Assembly: GCA_051362555.1 (NCBI GenBank)
Contig: CM120644.1
Location: 628,954-692,953 of the forward strand
DNA from: Lingula anatina
Lineage: Eukaryota > Animalia > Brachiopoda
Direction: 5' to 3'
Length of the DNA stretch: 64,000 nt
Shown here piece after piece: positions 16,113 to 43,249 of the stretch. The notes under the pieces are model-generated. The model worked only from the letters and a program-made list of their open reading frames with translations. It had not been told where the DNA came from and did not search any database. The position numbers and the translations under genes are program-made. Numbering within the stretch: position 1 is the first letter of the stretch; the number at the start of each line of letters is the position of its first letter.

Positions 16113-17799
16113 AAATTGTACAGTTAATAGTTACAGTATGAAGATACAGCAGTGGAATGGTCATAGTTATGAAACAGTTATGGTGCTGGACATTTTTAGC
16201 CCATAATCATGATCAGTTGCTTCTTGATTCGTATCAGCCAAAAAGAACCACAATCTAGCATCGAATCATGGCTAATATATATGCTGTTGAATTTCCAACG
16301 TTAACAGCATTTTCTAACATGGCCATCTGTACATATATACGAATTAGTAAAAGTTTGGTACATAGCCTTATCACTGAGCAACTTTGATTGGTCAGTTTCT
16401 GTACCTGGAGCATTTCTGTCTTGTGATTGAACGACAGAGTTGACCATTTTTGAAGATTAGTGCAAATTTTATATTTTTTTGCATTTTTAAGTTCTTGATT
16501 TTCAGTATTTATTTTATGTTTACTTTTTTCAACTTCATGCTTTCTTTTCTTTTGCAAAATTTAATTGGCAAATGAAAAAAAACGCAAACTAGAGGTTGTT
16601 GTTATCAGTAATTGTAAATGAAGCACTTTCTGCTGATCTGACAAGTCCAGGTGTCTTCAGTGCAGGAAATGCTGTTTGTAGTAAACAACCTGTGTGACAG
16701 AAATATATTGTAAATTGTACACAAAATACTGTAAATAGTTTAATCTAAATTAATATTGATGTGAAGCATATATTCACTTTATATATTGTAAAAATAATAA
16801 GAAAAATAATATCACTGATGGAAATTTGTGGATGTTATATTGGGAGTGTGGTTTGATTTGATTTATCTGTAGATAGTTCAACAAGGATGTCACACAAGAA
16901 TATTTTGATAGTTGTGTACTGCAACTTTTAAAACAACTTCTGTTGATTGATACAAAAGTTGGATGTAAATTTGGAGTGTGGCAGGTTTTGGCGCCCAGGG
17001 TCTATATCTGACTTGTTCACAGAGTGATGGGTGTTTTTTAACATGAAGTGTAACATTAAACTTGGAATACATGCATTGTATCAGTTGTTATTTTAAAATG
17101 TGTATATACAATAAGTAATAGCTGACCATGACAACAACTCTTTGTTGATCACCATCTTTTGTTGTACAGTAGAAGCTCAGATTCAAGATATCACATCAGT
17201 CTCTTAAATCTGGGTCTCACATTAAGTAACTCTTTAACTTACCAAAGATAATTTACAACTTGGCATTGATTTATTTCAAAATGTTACATTAATGTAATGT
17301 TCTTTTTAATTTTTACAAGCATGTATCTTGTTTGCGTTACATGATACAAAAGCCTTGGATATATGTACATAGTTAATCATGACCGTTAACCCTTTGTCAC
17401 TGTTCAACATCCCACATATTTACACTTCCTCTCAATGGCTGGCAGTTTTAAACAACACGGATTGAAAGGGTTAATTTGTTCTTACACTTATTACAATAGT
17501 CTGACCTTAAGATCATTTATTACAATAGATTATAATTTATGTTCAAGACTTAAACTTACAAAATAGCCTAACTATTAATTATTCCCCTATACAATTGCAC
17601 TTTCATATGATATGGCATTATGACAATTCAAGGAACTGTCACTGTTCCTGTTACTGGTGGTTAATGTTAATACTTCCCCCACTGCTGTTCCCAGCTGTGT
17701 TATGTTGTCACAGAATAAATCAGTATTACCTAAACTTGACATAGTTTTCATCTTGTTCATAAACAAACATATTTTTGCCTTGTCCTATGTGAAACATCC

Positions 17800-18240
17800 G
17801 AGTTCACAGCTAACACAGTGCATCGATGTCCCAGTTCACAGCTAACGCAATGTGCTGTCTCCCAGTTGACAGCTAACTCAATGTGCTGTCTCCCAGTTCA
17901 CAGCTAATGCAATATGCTGTCTCCCAGTTCACAGCTAACACAATGTGCTGTCTCCCAGTTCACAGCTAATGCAATATGCTGTCTCCCAGTTGACAGCTAA
18001 CGCAATGTGCTGTCTCCCAGTTGACAGCTAATGCAATAAGCTGTCTCCCAGTTCACAGCTAATGCAATGTGCTGTCTCCCAGTTCACAGCTAATGCAATA
18101 AGCTGTCTCCCAGTTCACAGCTAATGCAATAAGCTGTCTCCCAGTTCACAGCTAACACAATGTGCTGTCTCCCAGTTCACAGCTAATGCAATAAGCTGTC
18201 TCCCAGTTCACAGCTAACGCAATGTCCCCTTGTTCATAGC
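17800..18240. repeat. 31-bp tandem repeat (about 14 copies, decaying to about 18430) in the probable VPS50 3' UTR
   Basis: Unit GCTGTCTCCCAGTTCACAGCTAATGCAATAT, period 31, just downstream of the VPS50 stop codon. Confidence 0.9.
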
Positions 18241-18423
18241 AAACACAATAGACAATGCACTCCCACTTCACAGGAACACAATGTGCTGTTCACAGCCAAT
18301 TCAATGCAATTCGCAGTGACACAATGTGTCTTCCCAAGTCACAGCTAATGCAATGTAGTTCACAGCTAACACAACATGCTGTCTCTAAAGTCACAACTAA
18401 CGCAATGCAGTTCACAAAATGTG

Positions 18424-21400
18424 CTATCTCCTGTTGGCAGATTCCTCCACCATTGCCACCAGTCTCTGTCTTCCTCTTTTGTTGATGTGGTCCACACAGT
18501 TGATAAGAGAGATCAGTTGTTTGGGAGAGTATTCCTGAAAAGATAACATTTCAGCAACATTACCTTTTTATTGCACAATATTCAATATAAAAGTAGTTTT
18601 TGAAGAAAAGCACTTACTTTAAGCATAGCAATTTTGGTCACTGTATGAATCACACGTTATGGTAAACGTTAAATTCTGAACCGTCTACTGACCACAAAAA
18701 CTGAACAGATAAACCAGATAAAAGGGCAGTATTTGTCTGTATTTGTCTATATCTTGACCACTGCCCACTCAGTGTCCACTCATTGACCACCGTCCACTCC
18801 CTTACCCTTCTGTCCCTGACCCAGAGCTCTAGCTGTGTCTCTGGCAGGTAATACGCCTTGATGTAAGCGTCCACAAACTCCCGCTCTGGTATTGGTCGGA
18901 TGTTGGTCAACTTCTCCAGCTTCATCAGCAGCTGTTGAAAGTCCAGCTGCATCAGGGCTCGGCCCTCATTGGTACACTTCTTAGCACTGGCATAACTGGA
19001 AACATGATTTCTTGGTTTACTCAATGGTTTTATTCTATTTAATTAAGTATTCATCCTTTTCCCAAGCACTCCTAAATTTAGCAAATTGATTTAAAGACAA
19101 ATATTTAAGTTCTTTAATAACCATTCTGATCAACTGTAACAGTTTATATCAAATGACACGTTAACATGCTTCCTGTCCACACGACCAGAAACTGGAAATG
19201 TGCTATTGTTAACTTGTTATTTCAGCTGTATTTTGTTTGTATTTCATTTTTTTTTCAAATTACTAAATTTGTTTAACAACTAGACAGCAAAGCTGGCAAG
19301 TATACAGTCACCATACAGGAAACAAGGCAGTTTTATATACAGTGTCTGTATTGATTGATTTGATAACAAATTTTACAGATTCAAATTACAATATTATTCT
19401 GGTCAATTGCGTTAACCATCCTTCATAAAACCTAGTGGTTGCAAGATGTCTGTCATGACCAGACTGCCGCACACTTACCCTTCTACTAGCGTCCTATTGG
19501 CAAGTCCAATCACATGCTCCCACATTACCTTGGAAACGGCTTCAGGAAGCGGGACGCGGCGACTGACCCCATTTAACCTGTTACTGAACACTTGAAGTTC
19601 CTGTAAGGAAAGACTTTTCTTAAAACTAGAACACAAACATGTCAGGTATTTATGATTTAATATCACTGAAGACATACAAACAACTACCTCTAACTTGTAC
19701 TGGATAGCTCAGTTGTCTGATATCATTTCCAGATGCCCCTTGACTCTATAGCCAGTCTATAGCTAACCTTACCCTCAGTATGACATCCACATAGTTATTA
19801 TAATTGTATATTAATTCAAGCTTATAGTCAGACTTTATAGCCAGTCTCTATAGCCAAGACACTTAGACAAGACTCTATAGCCAGTCTATAGCTAACCTTA
19901 CCCTCAGTATGACATCCACATAGTTATTATAATTGTATATTAATTCAAGCTTATAGTCAGACTTTATAGCCAGTCTCTATAGCCAAGACACTTAGACAAG
20001 ACTCTATAGCCAGTCTATAGCTAACCTTACCCTCAGTATGACATCCACATAGTTATTATGCTGTGACATGATGTCCTTGATGTCCCACTTAACACTGCTG
20101 ACAGACTGCAGGAGTTGGTCAGTGTTCAGACACCTGCTGGTGACACATTGATAGACAGGCTTACGGAGCTCCTGGGCTGTACTCACAGTCTGAGGGTAAT
20201 AATAAAACATTTCATTATAACAATTAATATAACACACTGGTAGACAGGCTTACGGAGCTCCTGGGCTGTGCTCACAGTCTGAGGGTAATAATAAAACATT
20301 TCATTATAACAATTGATATAACACACTGGTAGACAGGCTTACGGAGCTCCTGGGCTGTACTCACAGTCTGAGGATAATAATAAAACATTTCATTATAACA
20401 ATTAATATAACACACTGGTAGACAGGCTTACAGAGCTCCTGGGCTGTACTCACAGTCTGAGGATAATAATAAAACATTTCATTATAACAATTGATATAAC
20501 ACACTGGTAGACAGGCTTACAGAGCTCCTGGGCTGTACTCACAGTCTGAGGGTAATAATAAAACATTTCATTATAACAATTAATATAACACACTGGAAGA
20601 CAGGCTTATGGAGCTCCTGGGCTATACTCACAGTCTGAGGGTAATAATAAAACATTTCATTATAACAATTGATATAACACACTGGTAGACAGGCTTACGG
20701 AGCTCCTGGGCTATACTCACAGTCTGAGAGAAATGATAAAACATTTCATTATAAGAAATATAGCACTTTGCCTGTGTGCTAACAGCATATCGAAAATGTA
20801 AAAATGTGTACTTCATATTCGTATCATGATGCAATTAATTTAAACTATATTCTATAAATGTTAAAGGCCAAATAAGCTCAAAGCCTCTAGCATAATTTTT
20901 TAAAATTATGAAATCATAATTTTTCTACAAAACTGCATTAAAAAAATCAGCAAAAATCAATGACATAGATAAAATGTGGTACTTGACTTACAAAACTGGA
21001 CAAATATCCTACATTTTTCTGTGGGTAAATCTTATTGGAGAAGTCATAAGTACCCACCTGTGAATAAAACTGCATGAGGAATGCTTTCTTAGTCTGTGGG
21101 ATGGATTCTTCCAGACTGGGTTTCAGGAACTCAAACTGCTCTGCCAGGAATACTCTGGAATACAGGAGAAGGGGGGGGGGGTTAAGACTTGGGAAGTAGA
21201 ATTACAATCAGTTCTTAAATACCCTAACACATACACACACATACACACACACACTGTTATTATAAGAACATATAACACTGGAAATTCATTCTCATCAGTA
21301 CTAGATCTTAAATTTTAAAATATATGAAATAACAAAATCATAAAAAGATCAAATTAATGAGCTCATAATAATTAAGCTGAGCAGAGTAAATATTAAAACA

Positions 21401-21699
21401 ATTCAAGCACAAGATAAACCTACATTCTACAAATAACATTACAGACCACTTTTACAAATAGCAGAAGATAATTCCTACATCAAGCACTTGCCACATAATT
21501 TCCATCACTGTAATACTCACAGAGACTCAGCGGCCACCACTCTCTCTGGCAGACCAAACAGTGAGTCTGGGTTGAGCAAATTGACGACGGGAGAAATGTG
21601 GGGCTGTAGAACTTTGTCCTAGGAGACAAACAAGGTTATGCATTCTATTAACATATGTCAACATATTACATGACAATTAACACAAATATACACAGTGAT

Positions 21700-21741
<42 letters not shown>

Positions 21742-21748
21742 ATTAATT

Positions 21749-21786
<38 letters not shown>

Positions 21787-21790
21787 TTAA

Positions 21791-21827
<37 letters not shown>

Positions 21828-21838
21828 GCACACACACA

Positions 21839-21911
<73 letters not shown>

Positions 21912-24900
21912 GCACACACACATTAAATTTTATACAGATTTCAAAGGTTGCAAGCAGAAATGTAGAGCAGATGTTTTACCCTCCTCTCCTCCATACTATC
22001 CATGCCATTGTCCTCTAATATCAAGTTATCATCTATTCTCTTCAGTGTGGTCCTCAGTTTGTTACTTAGTTCTCTGTCCTGGAAGGAATAATGGAAAAGA
22101 TTCAAGTCTACAAACAAATGTAAAGAAAAAAACTTATCTTTAACAAATAGAAGAGATGAACTTTGAAGTGGAACTTTTTAAAAGAAAATGCTAGTTAAGA
22201 AAAGAAAAGTAGGAGAAAGAAAGAAGAGTATCTTTTGTTTTGTAAACCTACCTCAGCAGCATATTCAGAACCAAAGAAGCTGTACACCTGGAATATGAAA
22301 ATACAAGTGTCAGATACATATTGGAACTGATACCACATACTGCCTACTTGTCCTCTGCACAAGGCTTTAAATAAGGTCTCAGTGTAATACAGTGTTATCA
22401 CAGATTACTTACTGTTTTCCTATTACTTTATCTCCCTAATAATGTACTAGACTAGTCTTAACATTCAAGGTTACACCTGGCACACGCCAGTAGACAGTAC
22501 ACAATGCCTCTACATCCAATAATTAATTTTAAAATGGTCATTATAAAGAGATCACAGTTTTAATATATTCTTCCCTCTAATAGATAAAGACATGTTGTTA
22601 AAAAAAACTGGTTGGGGAACTTACAGTGTACATATAAAAATCAAACAGCTGGGACATACAGAAGATCACATCAAAGGAGATGGGTTTGAGGACGTTCATC
22701 ATCTGCATGTATTTCCCTGGAAATAGAGGGGAGATAGAGAATACCATATTAATATATGTTTTTAAGAACTGCACGATAAAAAACTGATGGCCATAATTAC
22801 AGTTAGCCCAAGTTAAGAGCTAAGTAACTAGATACAACAGATAAAGTGAGTCCAATGTCATGGGTGAACGTTGTAGAAACTGAAAATTCTGTAAATTCTG
22901 ACATTAACAAAACGAACAAAAACAGCGCTGAAAATGCTGAAAACTTTCACCCATGTCAATGTTCACTTTTAAAGACTTTCAGAGTGTGAGCAAACTATAA
23001 CCATTACCCCAGAGTCTCATCACATTAAGTGTAGTATTGGTCACTACTGGAGAGAGCAAACTATAACCATTACCCCCAGAGTCTTATCACATTAAGTGTA
23101 GTATTGGTCACTACTGGAGAGAGCAAACTATAACCATTACCCCAGAGTCTTATCACATTAAGTGTGGTATTGGTTACTACTGGAGAGAGCAAACTATAAC
23201 CATTACCCCACAGTCTTATCACATTAAGTGTAGTATTGGTTACTACTGGAGAGAGCAAACTATAACCATTACCCCAGAGTCTTATCACATTAAGTGTAGT
23301 ATTGGTTACTACTGGAGAGAGCAAACTATAACCATTACCCCACAGTCTTATCACATTAAGTGTAGTATTGGTCACTATTGGTGCCAGTCTGTCTGATCTT
23401 AAACTTCCTCTTCTTATTGAAACCTTGGGCCTAGAATGAAACACTTGAATTTTACCTTTCGTTTATATTTTATATTTTATCTTTTTTTAAAATATACATT
23501 CGTACGTATATAAAGGATATCAGACCTGAAAGCACTTTGTCATAATTATTTTAAACTAACTCTAAAATTATATTTTTTGCAAACACTGTTTATAATATTA
23601 TAATATCAGTAATAACATAAGATTGATAAGGTGTGTCAGGTGTGACAGACAGGTGTGTTCCCAGGTGTTCTATGGAGTATATAACATTCTTTATTATATG
23701 AATCACCTCCTGACAGCAGGCACCTCTCCTGTCTGTTCATCAATGTAATCCTGCTTCAGTTCCTCAGGGATGTCAGAGTCACTGTCACTGTCGTGGTCTG
23801 GGGTACCCTCGTGGAAACCCTCGCTGTCAAACTGGAACAGACAGGAGATGAAGGTCATACACTGGTATTGTACACAGTCATATATCATAGAGCTGTAAAT
23901 ATCATGATTTAGGCACCACAGGTGAGATGAAGATTATTACACAGAGATAGTGTTAGTCTACTAAAATGATAATGTGTCCACCAAACCCATACAAAACATT
24001 TCTAAAAGTGACTCTATGGGTTACTCTACAGGAATTGTATTGGATGTGCTACAAGCCATATTATAGAAAACCTATGTCCTATAGAACCCTTCCATGAGAG
24101 AGAAAATATACAAATAAATATTAAAGAAATCATACAATTAATCAGACAATAATTCACCGAAAAAGCCTTTACTTCTTTCTTTTTATTAAGTTTTTTTCAT
24201 TTCATTTTACCCCATTTGTTGCTAGGACGTCCTCCTTTTCTTCCTCCTCTGCCTGAAGATCAAAGGGACTTCCCTGATCTCGAAACTTCTGGAACACGCT
24301 GGTCTTCACACTCCCTTGCGACAGTGAGCTCGCATTGCTGTGTGTGCGCCGTAGTCTGTGGCGCATAAACTTGTACTCCTGTTAATTGTGGAAAAGTTAT
24401 AAGAACACTTGAATATTATCTAAAAACATGCTATTATTTATCAAATATGTTTAACTTACTAAATTTAAATACAACTGCCGAGGTATTCCTAATAGAATAA
24501 TTCCAAAATTATGTATTGTATTCAATAAGGCATAATATAGGAAGCAGATACATGGGAAGAAAAAAAAAAAAACCTAAACTAAAGTATTACAGCCTGAACA
24601 CTGTTTACTTCAGCACCTTACACTAAGTAACACATTGGCATCACAGATGTCATACAATGAGCAGAACATTAAGTCATTTCTGTACAGAATGACAACAACA
24701 TAGGACTGCTGCATGGATCCAGGGAAGACAGATAGACAGCTTACCTGGAGTTGGAGTATACTAAAGTTGGACTTCACAGGACACAGTTCCCAGCCTTCAT
24801 TTTCTAGGAACATCCTCAGTTCATCTAGTCTGGACCTGGAGTAGAGGAGAAAGTGTGTTAGATGTGATTGTCTTATATGGCAGTGTTGTAGATATGACAG

Positions 24901-27900
24901 TGTTGTAGATGTGACAGTGTGTTGGATGTGACAGTGTGTTGGATGTGACAGTGTGTTGGATGTGACAGTGTGTTGGATGTGACAGTGTGTTGGATGTGAC
25001 AGTGTGTTAGATGTGACAGCGTGTTAGATGTGACAGTGTGTTGGATGTGACAGCTGTTGAGTTGCCAGGCTGTGTGAAGCTCTTGTATTTTTTTGTATTT
25101 TTTTACTGAGTTTGAATAAGTTTGTGGACTAAAACTTATTAAAGAAAACATTACCAACTGCTGCCACCATTGTTTCCTTACCTATGATAATTTCTAAAAT
25201 AGTTGACACTTTGCTGCCTGAGAGAATCTTGTAATCCTTCAGATTTACTTCCACAGAATTCTTCACCAACCTGAATTAGCCTGTGAAAAGAGAATACAAG
25301 AACAAATAACCCTTGGTGAGGGAAAAGATAAATCCACTTGATGTTTTGCTTTACTAAAGGACTATTTTTAAACTTCCATTAGCATTGACTTAAATAAACT
25401 TGTTAAGCTGTGAAGCATTTGTGTGTCTCATCATAGCCAGCAAACAATTGCAAATTGTTTACATTAAAGTGCTGATGTGACTGAGACTAATAACAGTTGC
25501 ACAGATTCTGATGAGAAGGGACCTGGCTTCACAGGATGCACAGTTATCTAGAATACAGATAAAATGCCATGTATTGAAATACAGGTGAACAACAAGAAAA
25601 TCCTTTTTTTTTTAGTAAACTCAGTGTCGACTGTATATTTGGTTTCTGAATTTGTGCGCAATAAACCAAAACCAATGTTTAACAGATATCAAGTGCTACT
25701 GTGTAAAATAAACATTTTAACTCAGTGCCACTGATATCTCACCTGTTGACAATGTCCAGCACCTGGATGAACTCATCGAATTTAAAAGTGGACATATCCA
25801 GACTGAGGACATAGGTCTTCACCTTCTGCTGGACGTCTTGCCAGATACGCTCCAGTCCGTGCTCCAGCTTCTGCTTCACATATCTCCTGTTGAACACGGC
25901 CTCCACACTGCTGCCATTGGAGTCTGCAATATCAGAGACTGGTTGAGATTGTGTTAGGTGTGACAGTGGAGATTTTACATTGTGTTAGGTCTGAAAGTGG
26001 AGATTTTACATTGTGTTAGGTCTGAAAGTGGAGATTTTACATTGTGTTAGGTGTGACAGTGGAGATTTTACATTGTGTTAGGTCTGAAAGTGGAGATTTT
26101 ACATTGTGTTAGGTGTGACAGTGGAGATTTTACATTGTGTTAGGTGTGACAGTGGAGATTTTAGATTGTATAGTATCTATCACAGTAAGAGAAATGCTAC
26201 AAATTCATCCAAAAATTGTAGCTCTGTTCATAATAACATCTATCCTATGTTTCCTTTTAAAATATTTAAAATTGGTGAAATTTATACTTTTAAAGTTTAA
26301 GCAATTGAAATTCTTCAGAAATTTAATGTTAAAAGTGTTATGTTCATGCACCACAAAGAGAATTGATACATTGATAGCAACCTGAATCTTGAGCCTCTTG
26401 TTCCTGTCTCTCGTGCCACTCGATGGTTTGATAATAACTCTTCATCACTTCCCACAATGCCTTGCACAGGTCCACAAGACATGGGTAGAACGTTTCTATA
26501 CTGATGTGCTGGAACAGACAGACAGAAGGGCTCAAAACAAATATACTTAATCTTTTCTGTAACATTTATTTCTTTGGTCCTGTAAGTTTTTGATTATTAT
26601 TATTTTATAAGGTGTTTAAAAAAATAGAGATGAAAAAACAGGTTTGAAAATATAGCACTGATTTCCCAAGATAGGGGAAAAAATAAAAGGGATTTTCTGT
26701 AACAAGCAGGGTAAGAACAGAGATGCTGCCCTTCTTATCTTCCTTTAGTTAGAATTTCTCGTTTATTTAGATCAATTTCAGGCAGTTTCAAAATAACAGA
26801 AACAAAATTCATATCTATGAAACAACACACAAACAGATCTAAATTCATGAAATGTCAAATGGGTGAAAAAAATAATGAAATAACCAATAATAAACAAACC
26901 AATCAAAATACAAACAGATTCAAATTGCAGCTTGCTGAATCATTTTCTTATCTCTTTTCCAAAAACGTATCATTCTAGAGGGGTATGTGTTAAAGCCCTT
27001 TGATATATAAGATATCTATCTCTGTACCAATGGCAGTATGATGTCCCAGGGTTTGAAGCAGTGGAATGCATTTTTGCAGATGGTTCATTAATTGTAGTCC
27101 TAATTTTCTGTTATAAAAGCACCAATTATACAAAGATTTTTTCTCCTCTTTCAACTTTTTTGACAACCAAACTAAATAAAAAACTTTCACACAATTATGC
27201 AAAAATGTTGATCAAACGTAAATATTTTTAATCACCTCAACAAAATTGCCACACAATGTTAATATTGCTGAGATTAGAATGTCTGAGGTGTGTCATCTTC
27301 TGGATGTGTTAGGTGAGACATCTCTCTGAATGTGTTTGGTGAGACATCTCACTGAGTGTGTTAGTTGAGACATCTCACTGAGTGTGTTAGGTGAGACATC
27401 TCCCTGAGTGTGTTAGGTGAGACATCTCCCTGAGTGTGTTAGTTGAGACATCTCACTGAGTGTGTTAGGTGAGACATCTCCCTGAGTGTGATAGTTGAGA
27501 CATCTCACTGAGTGTGTAAGGTGAGACATCTCAGTGTGTTAGGTGAGACATCTCACTGAATGTGTTAGGTGAGACAGCTCACTGAATGTGTTAGGTGAGA
27601 CAAATTCCCCAAGCCACATCTAACACAACCACACAGGGCTGCATGGATATCAGCAGTTAGTTGAATGAAAATATTCCTACATACTCACCACATTGCTAAA
27701 CAGGCGCTATCATAAAATCCAATACAAATATGTTAATCTACCTGTTACAGTGCCATTAAATTTACAGATTCAGAATTCAAAGAAAGAAGTTTATCAGCTA
27801 AGATAAAAGAAAGGTGACACAGAAACAGCAGTTGGATTATTCAAGAAATTTTTGAGACATAGAACTGTTAGAATTTAGATGTAACAGGTTTAAACTCTAA

Positions 27901-30900
27901 AATCATACATCAATTTTCTCATAGTAAACAAGACGCAGGTTCTCATAGTGCCATGTTTAAGCAAAAGTCTAAACAATAAAAAACTCTACTCATCCAGAGA
28001 CAAAAAGTCCCCAACTCGGCTCTATAACCTATGAAGGAGCTAGCATGCACTAGTCTTTCACATATAATGTCAGTATACTTACCTTACACAGGTCAGAGTA
28101 CTGTCTCTTCTGGAAATTGCTGTCTGCCGTCCCCGAGGTCAGCTCTACGTAACCCAGTACAATGGTGAAGGCAGTGTTATGGATGGCACTAGTGAAATGC
28201 ATGTGTAACTGGTCCATGGCAGTCTAGAGATAACAAGGTATAGATATAACTGTGATAATATATAACCCAGTACAATGGTGAAGGCAGTGTTATGGATGGC
28301 ACTAGTGAAATGCATGTGTAACTGGTCCATGGCAGTCTAGAGATAACAAGGTATAGATATAACTGTGATAATATATAACCCAGTACAATGGTGAAGGCAG
28401 TGTTATGGATGGCACTAGTGAAATGCATGTGTAACTGGTCCATGGCAGTCTAGAGAGAACAAGGTATAGATATAACTGTGATAATATATAACCCAGTACA
28501 ATGGTGAAGGCAGTGTTATGGATGGCACTAGTGAAATGCATGTGTAACTGGTCCATGGCAGTCTAGAGAGAACAAGGTATAGATATAACTGTGATAATAT
28601 ATAACCCAGTACAATGGTGAAGGCAGTGTTATGGATGGCACTAGTGAAATGCATGTGTAACTGGTCCATGACAGTCTGGAGAGAACAAGGTATAGATATA
28701 ACTGTGATAATATATAACCCAGTACAATGGTGAAGGCAGTGTTATGGATGGCACTAGTGAAATGCATGTGTAGCTGGTCCATGGCAGTCTAGAGAGAACA
28801 AGGTGTTATATGATGTTACCATGTCAACAGCACTGAGTAATATGAGGCACTTTCACATGCGGCAATATACTTTAGCGATGTAAAGTCTACATTTGGTGTA
28901 TTTTGAGATGTTGTTGGATGTAATTACACTAGAAGGGGTCTACTCTCTTTCAGATATAGTCATTGAATAATATATGATCCTTTTCACAAGAGCAATATAC
29001 TGTAATCATATACAGTTAAGATGCGATGTATATTAAGAAGTTGTAACCTGTCATTATACTATGGGATGTATACTCTTTTTCACAAATTGTCCAGAACTTT
29101 GCTGGCTGGTCTAACATGCATCATCAAGCCATGCACAGTGTCTTCATGTAACTGACTGTCTTGTGTCAAAGTTGTGACATGTCATAGGACAGTGTCAGTT
29201 CTACCTACCTGTGTCTTCCCCAGAAGTCTGTATGCATGTTGAACTTTCTCATAGTGTCTGGTGTCAAAGTTATGACATGTCATAGGACAATGTCAGCTCT
29301 ACCTACCTGTGTCTTCCCCAGAAGTCTGTATGCATGTTGAACTTTCTCATAGTGTCTGGTGTCAAAGTTATGACATGTCATAGGACAATGTCAGCTCTAC
29401 CTACCTGTGTCTTCCCCAGAAGTCTGTATGCATGTTGAACTTTCTCATAGTGTCTGGTGTCAAAGTTATGACATGTCATAGGACAGTGTCATCTCTACCT
29501 ACCTGTGTCTTCCCCAGAAGTCTGTATGCATGCTGAACTTTCTCATAGTGTCTTGTGTCAAAGTTCTGACATGTCATAGGACAGTGTCAGCTCTACCTAC
29601 CTGTGTCTTCCCCAGAAGTCTGTATGCATGTTGAACTTTCTCATAGTGTCTGGTGTCAAAGTTATGACATGTCATAGGACAGTGTCAGCTCTACCTACCT
29701 GTGTCTTCCCCAGAAGTCTGTATGCATGCTGAACTTTCTCATAGTGTCTGGTGTCAAAGTTATGACATGTCATAGGACAGTGTCAGCTCTACCTACCTGT
29801 GTCTTCCCCAGAAGTCTGTATGCATGTTGAACTTTCTCATAGTGTCTTGTATCAAAGTTCTGACATGTCTTGGACAGGGCCACGTCAAGCTGTTCCTCTA
29901 TCATCTCCAGAGTGTCGTGGAGCTTGGAGCTTAACTCACTGAAAATACAAACACAGCAATGAAGTTTGGTCTCTCTTTCTCTCTCTCTCTTTCTGTATAT
30001 ATGTGTGTGTGTATGTCCATCTCCTAGACTATCACCAGAACAGACAAACATGTGCTGAGTTGATGTACATTGTAAATCAGACTGTAATCATTGGTGTATG
30101 AAATGTGTTAGGTGAGATAAACTGTCTCACCTAACACAGCTGATGTGGTGTATGAAATGTGTTAGGTGTGATAAACTGTCTCACCTAACACAGCTGATGT
30201 GGAGTATGAAATGTGTTAGATGTGATATGCTGTCTCACCTAACACAGTTGATGTGGAGTATGAAATGTGTTAGATGTTATAAGCTGTCTCACCTAACACA
30301 GCTGATGTGGAGTTTGAAATGTGTTAGATGTGATAAGCTGTCTCAACTAACACAGCTGATGTGGAGTATGAAATGTGTTAGATGTGATAAGCTGTCTCAA
30401 CTAACACAGCTGATGTGGAGTATGAAATGTGTTAGATGTGATAAGCTGTCTCAACTAACACAGCTGATGTGAAGTATGAAATGTGTTAGATGTTATAAGC
30501 TGTCTCAACTAACAAAGTTGATGTGGAGTATGAAATGTGTTAGATGTTATAAGCTGTCTCAACTAACACAGCTGATGTGGAGTATGAAATGTGTTATATG
30601 TTATAAGCTGTCTCATCTAACAAAGTTGATGTGGAGTATGAAATGTGTTAGGTGTGATAAGCTCTCTCAACTAACACAGCTGATGTGGTGCATAAAATGT
30701 GTTAGGTGTGATAAGCTGTCTCAACTAACACAGCTGATGTGGAGTATGAAATGTGTTAAGTGTGATAAGCTGTCTCAACTAACACAGCTGATGTGGTGCA
30801 TAAAATGTGTTAGGTGTGATAAGCGGTGTCAACTAACACAGGTGATGTGGAGTATGAAATGTGTTAGGTGTGATAAGCTGTCTCAACTAACACAGCTGAT

Positions 30901-31960
30901 GTGGTGCATAAAATGTGTTAGGTGTGATAAGCTGTCTCAACTAACACAGCTGATGTGGAGTATGAAATTTGTTAAGTGTGATAAGCTGTCTCAACTAACA
31001 CAGCTGATGTGGTGCATAAAATTTGTTAGGTGTGATAAGCTGTCTCAACTAACACAGCTGATGTGGTGCATAAAATGTGTTAGGTGTGATAAGCTGTCTC
31101 AACTAACACAGCTGATGTGGAGTTTGAAATGTGTTAGATGTGATAAGCTGTCTCAACTAACACAGCTGATGTGGAGTATGAAATGTGTTAGATGTTATAA
31201 GCTGTCTCATCTAACAAAGTTGATGTGGAGTATGAAATGTGTTAGGTGTGATAAGCTGTCTCAACTAACACAGCTGATGTGGTGCATAAAATGTGTTAGG
31301 TGTGATAAGCTGTCTCAACTAACACAGCTGATGTGGAGTATGAAATGTGTTAAGTGTGATAAGCTGTCTCAACTAACACAGCTGATGTGGTGCATAAAAT
31401 GTGTTAGGTGTGATAAGCGGTGTCAACTAACACAGGTGATGTGGAGTATGAAATGTGTTAGGTGTGATAAGCTGTCTCAACTAACACAGCTGATGTGGTG
31501 CATAAAATGTGTTAGGTGTGATAAGCAGTGTTAACTTACACAGCTGATGTGATGTATGAAATGTGTTAGGTGTGATAAGCTGTCTCACCTAATGCAACTG
31601 TAATGTTTAAATGTACTGGCAGCTTTCTGGCACTCCAGACACAGCTGTATTGCACCAGGGTAGTCCTCCTCCTGAAAAATCACCAAATAAATCTATATAT
31701 GAGTAGCTTGGATATATTGACCTAATAGTAATAAAATGGCAATACATTCCTTAATTAAAACTGATTTGAGAAATAAAACTTATGCAGTCAAGCTTTATAA
31801 AATGGAAGAAACTAATTTACTATAGATGTATGTATGTATGTAGGTATCCGTCATCATTCGACTTCAAATTAATATGATAAATAAGCCCTCATACCCACCT
31901 CCATCATTTCTCTGAGCCTTATGTCAGTTCGTTGCTGAAAAATAGGAACTTTTAATAATA

Positions 31961-31991
<31 letters not shown>

Positions 31992-34900
31992 TGAATGAAT
32001 ACATTTCTCTTTCTTGTTTCAAATTTCATTCATAAATTTATATAACATTTTACACAGCAATTTAACATGGAGTAAATACATTTAACATGGAGTTAATACA
32101 TAAACAGAAATTCTCCATATTACTAGGAAATGTCATACTTACCAATGTCTTTATCATCCTGAGAGATTTCAGTAAAGCTATGAGTTGTTGTCTTTTCCTG
32201 AAGTTCTTCAGTAGACCTAAACTGGCAGTGGTGAAGACACTCTTAGCTAGAGTCAGCTGACTGGAAGACAGAAAGAACATTTGTGTTAGGTGTGCCACAG
32301 AGTATGACTGGCAGTGGTGAAGACACTCTTAGCTAGAGTCAGCTGACTGGAAGACAGAAAGAACAATTGTGTTAGGTGTGCCACAGTATATGACTGGCAG
32401 TGGTGAAGACACTCTTAGCTAGAGTCAGCTGACTGGAAGACAGAAAGAACAATTGTGTTAGGTGTGCCACAGAGTGTGACTGGCAGTGGTGAAGACACTC
32501 TTAGCCAGAGTCAGCTGACTGGAAGACAGAAAGAACAATTGTGTTAGGTGTGCCACAGAGTGTGACTGGCAGTGGTGAAGACACTCTTAGCCAGAGTCAG
32601 CTGACTGGAAGACAGAAAGAACAATTGTGTTAGGTGCACCAGTCTATGGTTTATCATTGTGTTAGGTGTGCCACAGTATATGACTGGCAGTGGTGAAGAC
32701 AGCCAGAGTCAGCTGACTGGAAGACAAGAAAACCAAGACTTATCTGTAGATATAACATTGTGTCAGGTGGAGCAGTGACTGATTTATAATATTGTATTAG
32801 GTGTGACAGTGTGTAAGATGCATTCTGTAGATATAACATTGTGTCAGGTGTGACAAGTGTGTTAGATGCATTCTGTAGATATAACATTGTGTCAGGTGTG
32901 ACAAGTGTGTTAGATGCATTCTGTAGATATAACATTGTGTCAGGTATGACAAGTGTGTTAGATGCATTCTGTAGATATAACATTGTGTCAGGTGGAGCAG
33001 TGACTGATTTATAACATTGCATTAGATGTGACAGTGTGTTATTTGCATTCAGTATAACAGAATGTAGTGACAGTGTTTAATGTGACAGTGTGTTAACTGC
33101 AGTAGTATGTTAGGTGTAACACTGTGCCAGAGTGTTTGATTTATCATTGTGTTAGGTGTGCCAGAGTGTATGTCTTTTAAAAACTTGAGTTAAGTGTGTC
33201 AGTGTGTTAGGTGTGACAGTGTGTTAGATGTGACAGTGTGTTAGATATGACATTGTAATACAACAGCCCCACCTTCTCCCGTCTGCACATATTGCACTGG
33301 CGTGTTGCAGTGTGGCCTGGAGCTCCATCACCCTCTGAAGTTCTGCCGCATACGCTGGGTGGTTCTCCAGCACAAGTTCTGACACTTTCTTTGATACCTG
33401 GAATAATAAGGTCAGAGGTAATGACACAGTTTACAGGTCAAAGGTCATAGGTAATGACACAGTTTACATGTCATCAGTGACTTAAATGCTAAGAGAACTA
33501 TATATGAAGTATGTGCAGATAAATGTCTTGCAAAAAATATCTTAATTACTAAACAAAAGGAATGGTTTTCATTTGAAAACCAAGTATGAATGTGTTCTCT
33601 ACACTGTTATACTTACAACTTGTAGCTGTTTTCTCAATTTTGTCCTGTCATCATCTATCTCCTGAAGGTTTAACTTCTCTGGAAGTTTCTGGAAATCATA
33701 TACACACAATTTTTAAATTCATAATGCATAATTTTTTTGATTTTTTGGAATTTCGGCAAATCTTTAAAAAATGCATGCAAACCCTTATAAACAACAAAAA
33801 ATAAGAGCATCAATGAATATGGATATGAATAAGTTGGCACAAACCAATTTCTAAAGGAAAAGTCACTAAAAAAATGATAAAATGTTTTGTTAAACATTCC
33901 CTGTCTATTATTCTCCCCTCCTTAATCTGTAAGACTGGGTTCCTGAACCTTGATCGATCTAACAGGATCAGTCTATCTCTTACCGGTTTCTTGTGAAATT
34001 GCTTTCAGCTTAAGTGGCTTAGATGTCTAGCATGTCTACTAAAGTTGCTAAATGATAATTACCCCCTAGCAGCATCAGCAGGCGTGCCAGACATGTAAGT
34101 CAATAAAGCTGATTGCAATTTAGGGAGAATCCCCTTGGAGATAGATTGATCCACAGTTAGTACGAAAGGGTATATATTATAATATGAATACTTACAGCCA
34201 GTTTAAACTCACTGGAATCATACATCACATTAACCCTGGTATATGTTATAATATGAATACTTACAGCTAGTTCAAACTCACTGGAATCATACATCACATT
34301 AACCCTGGTATATGTTATAATATGAATACTTACAGCTAGTTCAAACTCACTAGAATCATACATCACATTAATCCTGGTATATGTTATAATATGAATACTT
34401 ACAGCTAGTTCAAACTCACTGGAATCATACATCACATTAACCCTGGTATATGTTATAATATGAATACTTACAGCTAGTTCAAACTCACTGGAATCATACA
34501 TCACATTAACCCTGGTATATGTTATAATATGAATACTTACAGCTAGTTCAAACTCACTGGAATCATACATCACATTAACCCTGGTATATGTTATAATATG
34601 AATACTTACAGCTAGTTCAAACTCACTGGGATCAAACTCCTCCCCTCTGTAGTAGTCAGCCTCTATGGACTCCAGGAGATCTCTGTCAGCATGAGGGTCA
34701 TTGGGCATGTCTATGTGGTGGATATGTTCCTACAATACAGGACATAATGTGGTAGGTGAGACAGCTGAGCATTTGATCTCAACCTTACAAATTGTAGTAA
34801 GTGAGACAGCTGAGCATTTATCTCAACCTCACACATTGTGGTAGGTGAGACAGCTGAGCATTGGATCAACCTTACAAATTGTGGTAGGTGAGACAGCTGA

Positions 34901-36280
34901 GCATTAGCTCAACCTTACAAATTGTGGTAGGTGAGACAAATGAGAAGGTACTGTAAAATAGTTACTTTCTTTCACTTACACAATGCAAACATCTGTTGTT
35001 ATTATCAATGATAAAACATTGTATAAGTGAGAAAACATGTTGGTAGTACAACTGTACTGATTATAGCTAAGCATCCTGCCAATAACACTGTTTATGCTTT
35101 ACCAATATATAAGTTTAGTTTGAAATCCCACCCAAGTATCGCAATTGATATCTCTTTTGTGACCAGCCTAGGTTCAAATATCATCAGGATTCAACATTAA
35201 TATATCCTACATGTAAACTGACTGACTTTGCACTAACTGTACACACACTATACATGATTTATTACTGTATGCAACAAGTTACACCTTGTAGGCACACAGG
35301 GCACTTAGGCTTAAATAAAGCATTGGTACATCAGTTATTGTCTCTTATTATAACCCATCCGTTTACCTTGTACAAGGTATTGGTGCATCAGTTTTTTTAT
35401 TTCTAAAATTCTAATCCAGGCATTTACCTTGAACAAGGTATTGGTACATCAGTTTTTTACTTCTATAATTCTAACCCAGCTGTTTACCTTAAACAAGGCC
35501 ACTGCCGGCTGACCCACCAATTCATCTGCAGCAAAGTCATGATCAGGAGATCTGGGGTCCTGGAAGAAATGGGGAGATTATGATTATTATTATTATTATT
35601 ATTATAAAATGACAAACCCTGGTGGAGGGGCAATTCTACAGAAATCCTGGCGAGTAAAATTCACGTTTATTTATAAAACTTATATATTCCAGTAAAGTTG
35701 GCTGGTAAACCCCACCCCATTCCACTTATAAACTCTTATGCAGAGCTCACCATGTCCTCTGGGAGTGGAGATCATTTCTAGACTGAATATTTCCAAAAAT
35801 CTCAGAAAGCCAGCTCATTAAGGGCCAGAAACTGTCAGCCCTTAGTCTGATTTTTACACTTTTTTCTGCCAACATGTACTATGCCTCAGACATTTTCCTG
35901 TGGTGGCTGAAGACTGAAGCTTGCCTTCTAACTTACAGAGTTTAGGCACAAAATTACCACCGAGTGTATTGAATAAATTGATACACAAATCCACCACATA
36001 TGGCACAGGTGATCAACGACATCAAGTACGAACGACGTTTGCACTTAAAGTATATTACTCTTAAACAGTTAGTTAAAGCAAAATAATCAGTCTGTTAATA
36101 ATGAAGTATCATTAATTACACCCATTACAATTTACATTGGGAGTGACACACTGACAATACTTTACTGGCAATTATTGTTTTAGTTCCCGTAGAATAAGTG
36201 TAATTTGATTTTAAAAAGATTATCTAAAAGCACCTCACCTGCTTTCCAATGAGCGACTGCAATTTCTTCCGAAACGCCAT
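18424..36280 (-). CDS. VPS50: VPS50 / syndetin (CCDC132), EARP complex subunit; 26 coding exons, 945 aa
   Basis: Exons in transcript order: 36239-36280, 35488-35559, 34610-34729, 33617-33688, 33273-33397, 32143-32260, 31899-31934, 31589-31671, 29797-29938, 28083-28223, 26382-26508, 25743-25923, 25182-25280, 24745-24835, 24211-24378, 23707-23831, 23339-23430, 22625-22716, 22252-22287, 21980-22078, 21521-21618, 21058-21154, 20031-20189, 19479-19600, 18806-18995, 18424-18534. All introns are GT-AG and phases are consistent (total 2838 nt). Recognisable motifs: [76 protein letters not shown]. Confidence 0.95.
19742..20058 (-). repeat. 129-bp tandem repeat containing the VPS50 exon 23 donor (3 donor copies)
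   Basis: AGG|GTAAGG donor at 19771, 19900 and 20029; each unit carries about 28 nt of the exon end. Confidence 0.9.
20143..20755 (-). repeat. 89-bp tandem repeat containing the VPS50 exon 23 acceptor (7 copies)
   Basis: CTCAG|ACTGTGAG acceptors at 20190, 20279, 20368, 20457, 20546, 20635 and 20724. Confidence 0.95.
21700..21925. repeat. Compound (CT)n/(CA)n microsatellite
   Basis: Four CT-CA blocks separated by ATTAA(T/A). Confidence 0.9.
22987..23380 (-). repeat. 66-bp tandem repeat containing the VPS50 exon 17 donor (6 copies)
   Basis: TGGG|GTAATG donors at 23337, 23271, 23205, 23139, 23072 and 23006. The ORF track repeats [22 protein letters not shown]. Confidence 0.95.
24853..25055. 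repeat. 17-bp minisatellite (GATGTGACAGTGTGTT(G/A)) next to the exon 14 acceptor
   Basis: About 10 copies; the first GTTAG is at 24857-24861. Confidence 0.85.
25948..26163. repeat. 31-bp minisatellite (ATTGTGTTAGGTGTGACAGTGGAGATTTTAC) next to the exon 12 acceptor
   Basis: 7 copies, period 31. Confidence 0.9.
27305..27602. repeat. 26-bp minisatellite (TGTGTTAGGTGAGACATCTCACTGAG)
   Basis: About 12 copies, period 26, mid-intron 10 of VPS50. Confidence 0.9.
28150..28805 (-). repeat. 113-bp tandem repeat containing the VPS50 exon 10 acceptor (6 copies)
   Basis: Acceptors at 28224, 28337, 28450, 28563, 28676 and 28789. Each is followed by about 74 nt of exon ([25 protein letters not shown]). Confidence 0.95.
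29156..29868 (-). repeat. 98-bp tandem repeat containing the VPS50 exon 9 donor (7 copies)
   Basis: Units start at 29183, 29281, 29379, 29477, 29575, 29673 and 29771. Each is about 72 nt of exon end plus CAG|GTAGGT and 26 nt of intron. Confidence 0.95.
30095..31592. repeat. 54-bp hairpin satellite (28 units) whose last unit supplies the VPS50 exon 8 donor
   Basis: The unit contains TGTGTTAGGTGAGA-7nt-TCTCACCTAACACA. The period is exactly 54 (30126 to 31584 = 27x54), with a higher-order repeat at 594 bp. Confidence 0.95.
32221..32730 (-). repeat. 86-bp tandem repeat containing the VPS50 exon 6 acceptor (5 copies plus a degenerate one)
   Basis: Units at 32221, 32307, 32393, 32479, 32565 and a partial one near 32683. 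Each has CACCTAACACA, the pyrimidine tract, CCAG and 40 nt of exon. Confidence 0.95.
32745..33255. repeat. 48-bp and 17-bp TGTGT(T/C)AG(G/A)TGTGACA minisatellites filling VPS50 intron 5
   Basis: Unit TGTAGATATAACATTGTGTCAGGTGTGACAAGTGTGTTAGATGCATTC, followed by degenerate 17-mers. Confidence 0.8.
34170..34630 (-). repeat. 69-bp tandem repeat containing the VPS50 exon 3 donor (7 donor copies)
   Basis: GCT|GTAAGT at 34608, 34539, 34470, 34401, 34332, 34263 and 34194. The frame stays open through all copies (ORF 34157-34708). Confidence 0.95.
34745..34940. repeat. About 43-bp minisatellite (TTGTGGTAGGTGAGACAGCTGAGCATT..CAACCTTACAAA) next to the exon 3 acceptor
   Basis: 4-5 copies beginning about 15 bp from the acceptor. 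Confidence 0.85.
35320..35498 (-). repeat. Degenerate repeat of about 60 bp containing the VPS50 exon 2 donor (3 copies)
   Basis: CCTTGT(T/A)(T/C)AAG|GTAAA at 35486, 35426 and 35365, with shared ATTGGT.CATCAGTT spacers. Confidence 0.75.
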
Positions 36281-36359
36281 GTTAATTCAAATCTCACAAT
36301 ATTTTATAAAAAATCGTATAATTTACTCCTCCCCTGGGTAGCCATGTTGGTTTCCTGTA

Positions 36360-36369
36360 GTCACGTGAC
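36360..36369. promoter_or_regulatory. Palindromic E-box GTCACGTGAC (CLEAR / MiT-TFE / USF type) in the VPS50-SPR bidirectional promoter
   Basis: Exact 10-bp palindrome 80 bp upstream of the VPS50 ATG, within the 763-bp head-to-head gap. Confidence 0.6.
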
Positions 36370-37043
36370 AAACATTGAGCAACTCCACACCGATATAACA
36401 TAACATGTTGCTCATGCTGCACAAGTTGCTGCACATGTAGAAGTTTTGTAAGCCTAGATATAGATAAGATAATATATTTACAATATCTTAAGTGTGTAGG
36501 ATTCGTGTAAAACTTTACTTTATGCACTGGAGGTCATTTGAATAGTATGGCGTATCTTGGCCACTAGCTGTCAACGTTATATATTGACATTTGCCGCAGA
36601 AGACGTGTTTTGTGTTTACAGTGTTGTTATTGTTAATAAGAATCGACGGTTACCAAGTCATAGAAGCGAACGAAGAGAAGGGCATTTCAGGCAAGAAAGG
36701 TTGTTTTTCATAATCTGCATTTAACTATTTAACTGACTGGGATCATTCATGCTAGTTTCCACTTAATAAATGGAAGATGTCCTTGTAATTTGCGTGTTAA
36801 AGTAGAGGGTGGATATCTTTACTGTTTAACTGAAGACGAGTATCCAAATGTTATATGGTTATTGTTAATATTAAAAGAACTGACCATATAAGGTACAATA
36901 TGCCTAACAGTATATTTCCAATTTTTATAATAATTTTTAAATATACTAATATAACTATTTTGTTATTCCCGTGTTGCTTGTGCTGCCGCCAAGCAGAAAT
37001 AAAAATCACTAATTAAACAGTCCCTTATTGTAGCTATCCCAGG

Positions 37044-39046
<2,003 letters not shown>

Positions 39047-39072
39047 AAGATTTAGCTTAGTTTTATATGCTA

Positions 39073-39285
39073 GTATAAACTGCAGTAGGGAGTGTGTTAG
39101 GTGAGAATAAACTGCAGTAGGTGTGAACTGTGTATTGTGGTTAATGTGAATTAGGCAAGAATATTGTGTTAGGTGTGACTATTGTGTTAGGTGAGAATAA
39201 ACTGCTGGTGTGAACTAGGTGTAAACTGTGAACTGTGTATTGTGGTAGGTGTGAATTAGGTGAGAACATTGTGTTAGGTGAGACT
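39073..39285. repeat. Degenerate TGTGTTAGGTG(A/T)GA repeat cluster in the SPR 3' UTR
   Basis: Multiple GTGTTAGGTGAGAATAAACTGC and TGAACTGTGTATTGTGGT copies right after the stop codon. Confidence 0.75.
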
Positions 39286-40418
39286 TGCCCATTGTGCAGG
39301 GTAAGAATATCCTCATAAGTTTGATTATGTAAGTAAAGATGGTTGACTTGGATTTAATCCATTATACAAATTACTTACTGTGTTTAACCATTTTTGGCAT
39401 TTCTTACTTACTCATTTCATGAGAGTTACTGTTGGTGAATTTCTTAGGACAAACAGTTTCTTGTACTTAAACAATGCAACAAACGCACAATGTAAGAATT
39501 ATGCATTATGCAATATTAATTAAGCATAGTCAAATAAGCCTATAAGATCAGCATTTTACTTTACAAAATACTTATAATTATACATACAGTGTACTTATTA
39601 TTACATGTATTATACTGAGTAACATATTTTACTTTATAATAAAGCAATGTTTAAGCAGCAGTATGTTAATTTTTAAACAAATGCTGTAACAGTATGTATA
39701 AAAAAAAACTTAGCTGTAAGTTTGTGTCAAAGTTTTGTATCTTGTAAATATAGTGTTGTGTATAGTTGAACACTGCCTTCTTGTACAGCTGTACATTGTG
39801 CAATCATTAATACTGAAAAATTTAAATTCTGCTTGTGTACATTAGTTCTTTTTTATTTTTCTCATTCAGTTTAAAGTTTTTATTGCAAAAATCATGTTTT
39901 CGTGTGTTTATTATAATCAAACACATATTCTATCATTGCATTAAATAATACAGTCAATACCAAAACTCTCTTTTAGTGAATTTTTTAACCTACATGTGCA
40001 TCAGGCAGACTGACTACTAAACCACGCCTCCGTTGTCAAGGGTTGTTGCCATGAGGGGGCGGAGCAAGTTTAATTAGTTATAAGCCCATTCACTGTGCCT
40101 TACCAGGCAAGTCTTATGGCAGCAATGTAGTGAAGAAATGACACCATGTGGAGGTTTAAAACTTGTGTCAAATATACATTTTCTAAAAAAAGGAGGAAAA
40201 TTGCAGGCAGTCCACCCCCACAATGTTTCTTTTTCTTGAGTCCACAAGGCGAGACCCCTCAGCCTCATTAACTCAAGCTAATAACACAGATATCTAGACA
40301 CCAATTAATCATAATCTAGACGAGTATGCAGTGTAGAAACTATACCTCAACAACGATTATTATTATTTTTTAAAAGTTTTTTTCAAGCGTTACGCGGCTT
40401 TTCCGCCGCTACTAATAT

Positions 40419-42883: not shown

Positions 42884-43249
42884 TCACATCTCCGTACACT
42901 CCACAGACAGTCCAGAACTGGCGATTCCAAACTCTGTCACCACAGCTAGGTACGGTGATACTTGGTGAAGGGCTCGCAGAAAATCTTCAAACACGATGCG
43001 ACGCAGTCCCTCTGGTTGAGTGTCCAAGTAGGACAAGACGGACAACAGTATAACAGCCATTTTATACTTAGGATTGGTGATGAAGATAATTTTATAACGT
43101 TGTTCTTCCGTCAAGATATAAGAGTCACGAAGCAGATTAGCAAATGTCTGGATCTTGTTCAAGTCAGTGAGACTGGCTATCAGAGTGAGGAACATGAGAA
43201 GGATCCACCATCGTTCTGGAGAGTTGTTGTTTACTACTGGTTTAGCCAT
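42884..43249 (-). CDS. Putative 121-aa CARD/death-fold-like small protein
   Basis: Intact ATG-stop ORF preceded by an acceptor-like TATTTTGTAG at about 43285. The helical pattern LLRDSYILTEEQRYKI..KMAVILLSVL..FEDFLRALHQVSPYLA resembles CARD domains, judged by eye only. Confidence 0.45.
   Translation of the reverse strand: MAKPVVNNNSPERWWILLMFLTLIASLTDLNKIQTFANLLRDSYILTEEQRYKIIFITNPKYKMAVILLSVLSYLDTQPEGLRRIVFEDFLRALHQVSPYLAVVTEFGIASSGLSVECTEM

What the first reader, a model, noticed from the sequence alone, without database searches (positions are those of the whole stretch)
19742..35498. Systematic tandem amplification of splice junctions across VPS50
Seen: nine junctions at eight of 26 exons each have their own tandem array. 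Donor arrays are at exon 2 (about 60 bp x3), 3 (69 x7), 8 (54 x28), 9 (98 x7), 17 (66 x6) and 23 (129 x3). Acceptor arrays are at exon 6 (86 x5-6), 10 (113 x6) and 23 (89 x7). The units have different lengths and mostly unrelated sequences, each straddles the exon-intron boundary, and each array extends only into the intron, leaving the coding sequence intact. Inference: these are repeated independent events, pointing either to a mutational process targeted to splice junctions (e.g. co-transcriptional R-loop or spliceosome-linked breaks repaired by slippage or rolling-circle copying) or to strong filtering of a very high duplication rate. The spliceosome must then choose among up to seven near-identical sites. 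I know of no named system for this.
Basis: partly seen in the sequence, partly recalled or inferred. Interest (0 to 1): 0.88.

Follow-up and report, generated by a model that had tools for sequence, protein, structure and literature searches.

The report
Dense "mirage" splice-junction repeats in VPS50
Eight short DNA repeats in one invertebrate's VPS50 gene are stacked copies of the gene's own exon-intron boundaries, a repeat type already named "mirage" in lancelets; at the junctions that RNA reads could resolve, only the copy next to the exon is used, so the extras are likely harmless by-products of local DNA duplication.

Summary
The arrays are real. VPS50 (26 exons, open 945-aa frame, minus strand) has 8 arrays whose units hold 11-74 exon bases plus an intact splice signal. 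The ninth (54-mer) is mostly a genome-wide satellite motif: only 4 of its 27 extra copies keep GT. Two short-read DNA runs show the 69-, 66- and 98-mers as multi-copy, which argues against assembly artefact. RNA uses the exon-proximal site at exon 2 (16 reads), 3 (25), 8 (7) and 9-10 (14; 17 more reads are mapping ties). Exon 17 is unresolved and exon 23 untested.

The arrangement has a name: amphioxus "mirages" (PMC3087553). Human F7 has the same layout, with experiments showing that the first donor wins (PMC1557585). This scan found the pattern at least 8 times before on other DNA.

"Extends only into the intron" is geometry, not evidence. Junction overlap is about twice that expected after removing exonic placements (8 versus 3.8-4.6; p 0.01-0.05) in a hand-picked gene. 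A 2-3x longer survival of exon-anchored arrays would explain it. Junction-targeted mutation is not excluded, but it is not shown. Verdict: a dense new example of a known kind.

The parts
18423..36280 (-). VPS50 (syndetin) gene, 26 coding exons, 945 aa
   Evidence: RNA joints
35322..35498 (-). 60-mer x3, exon 2 donor; 11 nt exonic; 3 GT donors; copies 79% alike
   Evidence: 16 RNA reads use the proximal donor
34169..34634 (-). 69-mer x6.8, exon 3 donor; 25 nt exonic; 7 GT donors; in frame and stop-free through all copies
   Evidence: 25 RNA reads use the proximal donor
32221..32730 (-). 86-mer x4.8 plus one decayed copy, exon 6 acceptor; 40 nt exonic; unit also holds the dispersed motif
   Evidence: RNA depth 0-0.24 over the distal copies
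30092..31592 (-). 54-mer x27.8 abutting the exon 8 donor; built from the dispersed motif; GT in 4 of 27 extra copies; doubtful as a junction array
   Evidence: 7 RNA reads join exon 9 to the true end of exon 8 (loose end)
29157..29877 (-). 98-mer x7.4, exon 9 donor; 73 nt exonic; 7 GT donors
   Evidence: RNA
28150..28804 (-). 113-mer x5.8, exon 10 acceptor; 74 nt exonic; 6 AG acceptors; same intron as the 98-mer
   Evidence: RNA
22988..23381 (-). 66-mer x6, exon 17 donor; 43 nt exonic; 6 GT donors; in frame and stop-free for the first three extra donors
   Evidence: RNA inconclusive
20143..20754 (-). 89-mer x6.9, exon 23 acceptor; 47 nt exonic; 7 AG acceptors
   Evidence: no reads laid
19742..20059 (-). 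129-mer x2.5, exon 23 donor; 29 nt exonic; 3 GT donors; 100% identical copies; 69 nt of the unit absent from the distal flank
   Evidence: no reads laid
24891..34938 (.). Purely intronic arrays that belong in the denominator: 17-mer 24891, 31-mer 25948, 26-mer 27305, decayed 130-mer 28840, 20-mer 32060, 48-mer 32785, 15-mer 33067, 17-mer 33195, 33-mer 33408, 43-mer 34748

Best explanation
These are 'mirage' minisatellites: stretches of 60-129 bp crossing an exon-intron boundary sit in tandem copies, likely made by ordinary local duplication and unequal exchange, and the spliceosome uses the copy next to the exon wherever the reads could tell. Steps. (1) Inferred: a break or slip repaired by end-joining duplicates 60-130 bp in a gene that is locally rich in arrays; some units carry extra bases at the seam. 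(2) Partly shown: copy number then changes by unequal exchange or slippage; two intronic arrays differ in copy number in another individual. (3) Geometry: a unit that crosses one boundary always leaves the exon whole and puts the extra copies in the intron. (4) Shown for 5 junctions: the exon-proximal site is used. Inferred from human F7: the first donor is taken by 5'-to-3' scanning, and the last acceptor probably by exon definition; mis-spliced products of 6 of the 8 arrays would carry early stops and likely be destroyed. (5) Inferred: wholly exonic duplications are purged, and exon-anchored arrays are harder to delete than free intronic ones, which gives the two-fold excess at junctions.
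For: Anatomy matches the published definition. RNA: exon 2-3 skips 758 nt, 16 reads, depth 0 over the copies; exon 3-4 skips 921 nt, 25 reads; exon 9-10 skips 1573 nt, 14 reads. The two other exon 9-10 placements (10 and 7 reads) have longest short sides of 53 and 71 nt, within the 51(+2) and 74 nt that exon and copy share exactly, and mid-array depth is 0, 0 and 0.06, so they are ties. The 69-mer is stop-free and in frame, so decay cannot hide distal use there, yet no distal joint is listed. DNA contigs of depth 305 (69-mer, X3) and 475 (66-mer, X1) stand against 38-95 for single-copy contigs. One haplotype of X3 lacks the 33-mer duplicate and one 43-mer unit. Null model: 8 of 20 against 4.5-4.6 expected, p 0.048-0.055; 8 of 11 long units against 3.8-3.9, p about 0.01; a persistence factor of 2-3 gives p 0.12-0.30. 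F7 IVS7 experiments. Tandem duplications from staggered nicks.
Against: The excess at junctions stays at p about 0.01 for units of 50 bp or more, and at p 0.006 for arrays without the dispersed motif (7 of 11 against 2.9). Intronic arrays also lean to exon edges (6 of 9 within 60 nt against 3.1, p 0.049). The persistence factor is assumed, not measured. RNA depth is low (about 5-20 reads per junction per run), the joint tables hid 13 and 6 rows, and joints under 3 reads are not listed. Some depth inside arrays is not explained by listed joints: about 180 letters in the 69-mer in X12, about 300 letters over the first two extra 98-mer donors and up to several hundred in the 66-mer in X13. Minor distal use is therefore not excluded. 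No shared breakpoint signature supports any one repair path.
Confidence: 0.72

Rival explanations
1. Junction-biased mutation: breaks or template switches form preferentially at exon edges of a transcribed, probably methylated gene (R-loops, stalled spliceosomes or paired repair nicks), so duplications start there more often than elsewhere.
For: Two-fold excess, p 0.006-0.05 depending on the set. Intronic arrays also lie near exons. All 8 arrays of period 60 or more found at default settings cross a junction. The gene lies in a CpG-poor domain (o/e 0.09-0.43 up to 40 kb, 0.51-0.97 beyond). Earlier notes of this scan report the pattern in other invertebrates (leads only).
Against: The gene and the size cut were chosen after seeing the pattern. 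The two neighbouring genes show no junction array in TRF. Units share no sequence or fold (9 units folded, z from -1.86 to +1.75). Equally CpG-poor DNA at 1-12 kb holds few arrays. A 2-3x survival advantage removes the excess.
Confidence: 0.2
2. The arrays are functional splicing variants: distal sites add repeat-coded peptides (23 aa per 69-mer, 22 aa per 66-mer) or tune VPS50 level through decay.
For: 69-mer insertions are in frame and stop-free for all 6 extra donors, and 66-mer insertions for the first 3. There is unexplained RNA depth inside both arrays in one run each.
Against: 25 of 25 listed exon 3-4 reads use the proximal donor, and depth is 0 in three runs over the distal 69-mer copies. 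The other six arrays give early stops. Copy numbers of neighbouring arrays vary between individuals.
Confidence: 0.05
3. Assembly artefact: copies were multiplied by the assembler.
For: The 129-mer copies are 100% identical and were not tested with reads. The 113-mer shows only 126-137 summed depth in X1 against about 80.
Against: Copies differ from each other in mosaic patterns (79-98% matches). Multi-copy contigs occur in two short-read DNA runs that differ from the window at many positions.
Confidence: 0.03

Closest known systems
Amphioxus 'mirage' minisatellites (Adh3, globins BflGb6 and BflGb9, troponin C, PGBD5). Passages read in PMC3087553 and PMC3902484; the original Adh3 paper was not held.
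   Same: Tandem units that span an exon-intron boundary at either donor or acceptor. Unit lengths 10-160 bp there, 60-129 here. Most copies keep GT/AG, edge copies diverge, and normal splicing is undisturbed.
   Different: The host is a spiralian outside the sampled molluscs, not a lancelet. Eight arrays sit in one gene, one intron carries a donor and an acceptor array back to back, and one exon is flanked on both sides. Somatic instability was not tested here.
Human F7 intron 7 VNTR (37 bp; five to nine identical donors). Abstract and Discussion of PMC1557585 read.
   Same: The first unit spans the exon-intron boundary, identical pseudo-donors follow, and only the most upstream is used, in-frame ones included.
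   Different: One donor array in a mammal. It says nothing direct about acceptor arrays, where the last copy is used here.
Internal tandem repeats at exon-intron boundaries of human genes, and intron gain by duplication of AG/GT sites (passages of PMC2812944; model in PMC3087553)
   Same: Minisatellite units across gene-structure boundaries that can offer new splice sites.
   Different: No new intron or alternative form is seen here; the 26-exon frame is intact.

Membership tests
Mirage minisatellite | Head-to-tail repeats of minisatellite length | tested here: met
   Periods 60-129, 2.5-7.4 copies
Mirage minisatellite | Unit spans a real exon-intron boundary | tested here: met
   8 of 9 arrays with 11-74 exonic nt. 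Boundaries from homology; RNA joints confirm those of exons 2, 3, 9 and 10. The 54-mer is doubtful.
Mirage minisatellite | Copies retain GT or AG signals | tested here: met
   All counted copies of the 8 arrays; only 4 of 27 extra copies in the 54-mer
Mirage minisatellite | Normal splicing uses the authentic site | tested here: met
Mirage minisatellite | Copy number varies between alleles | tested here: inconclusive
   Shown for two intronic arrays (33- and 43-mer). Short-read contigs give no copy number for the junction arrays.
Mirage minisatellite | Somatic instability (reported for Adh3) | not testable with these tools
   Needs single-molecule reads from one animal
   8 against 3.8-4.6, p 0.01-0.055, in one post hoc gene; no genome held
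   Apparent fillers of 3-69 nt with no common pattern, locally templated clearly only in the 129-mer; no unusual folding

The most novel reading that the evidence does not exclude
In this animal, short tandem duplications arise preferentially at the exon edges of transcribed housekeeping genes, through breaks linked to splicing or to repair in methylated gene bodies. The resulting arrays also trade sequence with the coding exon, so mirages would be the trace of a splice-junction-biased mutational process rather than survivors of random duplication.
Probability: 0.2. Interest if true: 0.7.

Novelty: new member of a known kind. Interest (0 to 1): 0.27.

Why it matters
As it stands it is a dense natural test bed for splice-site choice: five donor and three acceptor arrays in one conserved gene, two of them in frame and so invisible to decay. 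It also warns that such arrays create false alternative junctions in short-read RNA mapping (17 of the 31 listed exon 9-10 reads were placed on wrong copies). If a genome-wide bias among young duplications were shown, it would tie RNA processing to where DNA mutates and supply raw material for intron gain; my searches found no such test in print.

Tried and rejected
No whole genome is held, so the genome-wide enrichment test could not be run. The original Adh3 mirage paper was not held. No RNA run is indexed as a holder; raw-read runs of the same species label were laid instead. The apparent distal splice joints 28223/29209 and 28562/29797 were rejected as mapping ties. 'Extends only into the intron' was rejected as evidence because it follows from geometry. 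Hairpin-driven origin: 9 units folded, none below z -1.9. Templated filler as a common end-joining signature: of 6 fillers of 8 nt or more, the 129-mer matches nearby sequence (12 nt, p 0.01), the 60- and 86-mer 'fillers' are just diverged or extra copies, and three show nothing; diverged edge copies or a later insertion beside the 69-mer explain them as well. The first null without collapsing arrays gave p 5e-4 and overstates the case; collapsing gave p 0.009, and adding two decayed duplications gave 0.05. Rfam: 0 matches. Pfam hits to the 190-aa frame through the 69-mer are repeat noise. No earlier notes for this genome, its relatives or the motif. PMC12783039 (passages) was not relevant. 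The tree is a quick single-gene tree with the window's position unresolved.
Full report
Observation. Tandem Repeats Finder recovers all nine arrays at the stated coordinates and periods. One exon searched against the protein collection returned 36 hits among 42 candidates, the named ones syndetin/VPS50. Aligning five of them to the window and fixing the boundaries gave 26 minus-strand exons (36280-18423), all introns GT-AG, and a 945-aa frame with a single terminal stop. Full-length identity is at most 64.5% (a nemertean) and 62.6% (a chiton). A quick tree of 27 rows (fragments and two near-duplicate proteins left out) puts the gene among spiralians, outside the sampled molluscs, position unresolved.

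Anatomy. Walking each array from the true boundary, eight have units with 11, 25, 40, 73, 74, 43, 47 and 29 exonic bases and intact GT or AG in 3 to 7 copies. The 54-mer differs. It shares only TTAG with the end of exon 8 (12 nt under looser settings), 4 of 27 extra copies keep GT, and each unit holds about two copies of a 15-16 nt motif that also builds the intronic 17-, 26-, 31-, 43- and 48-mers and sits in the 86-mer. That motif has 111 matches in the window against 0.42 expected, and a summed contig depth of 74,537 in one DNA run. That extra copies lie in the intron is not evidence of anything: duplicating a unit that crosses one boundary always leaves the exon whole on one side.

Real or artefact. 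Copies differ in mosaic patterns (79-98% matches; only the 129-mer is 100%). In short-read DNA run X3 a contig in the 69-mer has depth 305 against 38-89 for single-copy contigs, and one haplotype lacks the 33-mer duplicate and one 43-mer unit. In X1 a contig in the 66-mer has depth 475 against 48-95, and the 98-mer bins sum to 860 and 250; the 113-mer is weaker at 126-137.

Which site is used. Six RNA runs from three studies were laid, three on 31600-36400 and three on 22000-30090; 6-30% of each run was read. Exon 2-3 skips 758 nt in 16 reads, with depth 0 over the copies. Exon 3-4 skips 921 nt in 25 reads with up to 68 nt on the short side, beyond the 20 nt shared exactly with the copies. Seven reads join exon 9 to the true end of exon 8. 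Exon 9-10 has three listed placements: 14 reads at the proximal pair, 10 at the last donor copy and 7 at the third extra acceptor. The last two have short sides of at most 53 and 71 nt, inside the 51(+2) and 74 nt of exact identity. They account for the depth in their bins, and the middle of the 98-mer has depth 0, 0 and 0.06, so they are ties and not distal use. The distal 86-mer copies have depth 0-0.24. Against a clean result: 13 and 6 joint rows were hidden, the exon 5-6 and 17-18 joints among them. About 180 letters in the 69-mer (X12), about 300 over the first two extra 98-mer donors (X13) and part of the 2.62 depth in the 66-mer bin (X13) are not explained by listed joints. Distal use would give early stops for six arrays, but in-frame, stop-free inserts for the 69-mer and the first three extra 66-mer donors. 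The 69-mer result therefore shows choice, not decay.

Is the junction overlap more than chance. I collapsed each array to one unit, slid units of the observed lengths along the gene and kept only viable placements (intronic, or crossing one junction with at least 6 nt on each side). With the 18 default arrays, 8 cross against 3.5 expected, p 0.009. Adding two decayed duplications gives 8 of 20 against 4.5-4.6, p 0.048-0.055 (0.014-0.017 if the 54-mer counts). Units of 50 bp or more give 8 of 11 against 3.8-3.9, p about 0.01; arrays without the motif give 7 of 11 against 2.9, p 0.006. Six of nine short intronic arrays lie within 60 nt of an exon against 3.1, p 0.049. So there is a two-fold lean to exon edges, in a gene and with a cut-off picked after the fact. 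If exon-anchored arrays last 2-3 times longer, because a deletion can remove them from one side only (inference), p rises to 0.12-0.30. The neighbouring short-chain dehydrogenase gene and the last exons of the upstream gene carry no junction array.

Mechanism. Seams carry apparent fillers of 3-69 nt, clearly templated from nearby sequence only in the 129-mer, and units do not fold unusually. No single repair path is shown. Tandem duplication by end-joining of staggered nicks is documented in mouse cells (passages of PMC5730883) and would fit, as would slippage. For donors, mutation experiments on human F7 show that identical downstream donors work but lose to the most upstream one (abstract and Discussion of PMC1557585). 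For acceptors I infer exon definition; this is untested. One hint of exchange between exon and copies: mRNA of X13 differs from the window's exon 17 at 23343 (11 of 11 reads) and 23373 (10 of 11), both towards bases found in the intronic copies; the same holds at 28149 (19 of 19 in X13) and 32220 (14 of 15 over three runs). Shared ancestral polymorphism explains this equally well.

Known kind. Tandem duplications of exon-intron boundaries are named 'mirages' in amphioxus Adh3, globins, troponin C and PGBD5, with unit lengths of 10-160 bp, variable copy number and normal splicing (passages of PMC3087553 and PMC3902484; the Adh3 paper itself not seen). Human examples exist (passages of PMC2812944). 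I found the name from the literature before looking at earlier notes; eight earlier findings of this scan in at least four other genomes reached the same label (unchecked AI notes). Eight paper searches showed no genome-wide test of enrichment and no use of the term for such repeats outside amphioxus; subscription journals are mostly missing from that library, and no supplements were read.

Verdict. A real and unusually dense new example of mirage minisatellites, silent where it could be tested. The one open question of substance, junction-biased mutation against survival, needs a genome-wide, age-stratified test. Interest 0.27.

Noticed in passing
window 8397-57701, mostly 23600-39300: A 15-nt motif has 111 matches against 0.42 expected, 109 of them below 40 kb. 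It builds most short intronic arrays, occurs as an inverted pair in the 54-mer, forms the exon 8 donor, and is very high copy in the genome (depth 74,537 at 33210-33370 in X3) and present in other transcripts. Origin unexplained.
   Followed up: partly
window 23343, 23373, 28149, 32220: mRNA alleles of other individuals differ from the window's exons towards the bases in the intronic copies: gene conversion or ancestral polymorphism.
   Followed up: partly
window 1-40000 against 40001-64000: CpG observed/expected is 0.09-0.43 over the genes and 0.51-0.97 beyond 40 kb, as in mosaic gene-body methylation. Most arrays lie in the CpG-poor part.
   Followed up: partly
window 33945-34170: High-copy dispersed repeat (depth 50,856 in X3) directly abutting the distal end of the 69-mer array. 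By eye it resembles the inverted-repeat element near 52560-52990.
   Followed up: no
window 17797-18407: 31-mer array (about 14-20 copies) starting just after the VPS50 stop codon, probably in the 3' UTR; a motif cluster likewise follows the stop of the next gene at 39093-39283.
   Followed up: no
window 36280 and 37017-39046: VPS50 is head to head with a three-exon short-chain dehydrogenase gene (adh_short E=1.8e-11; resembles sepiapterin reductase from recall).
   Followed up: partly
window 50000-51100: By eye, a decayed Tc1/mariner-type transposase (label recalled, not tested).
   Followed up: no
window 42950-43113 and 55772-55935: A stretch of about 160 bp that looks identical by eye at two places 13 kb apart.
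   Followed up: no
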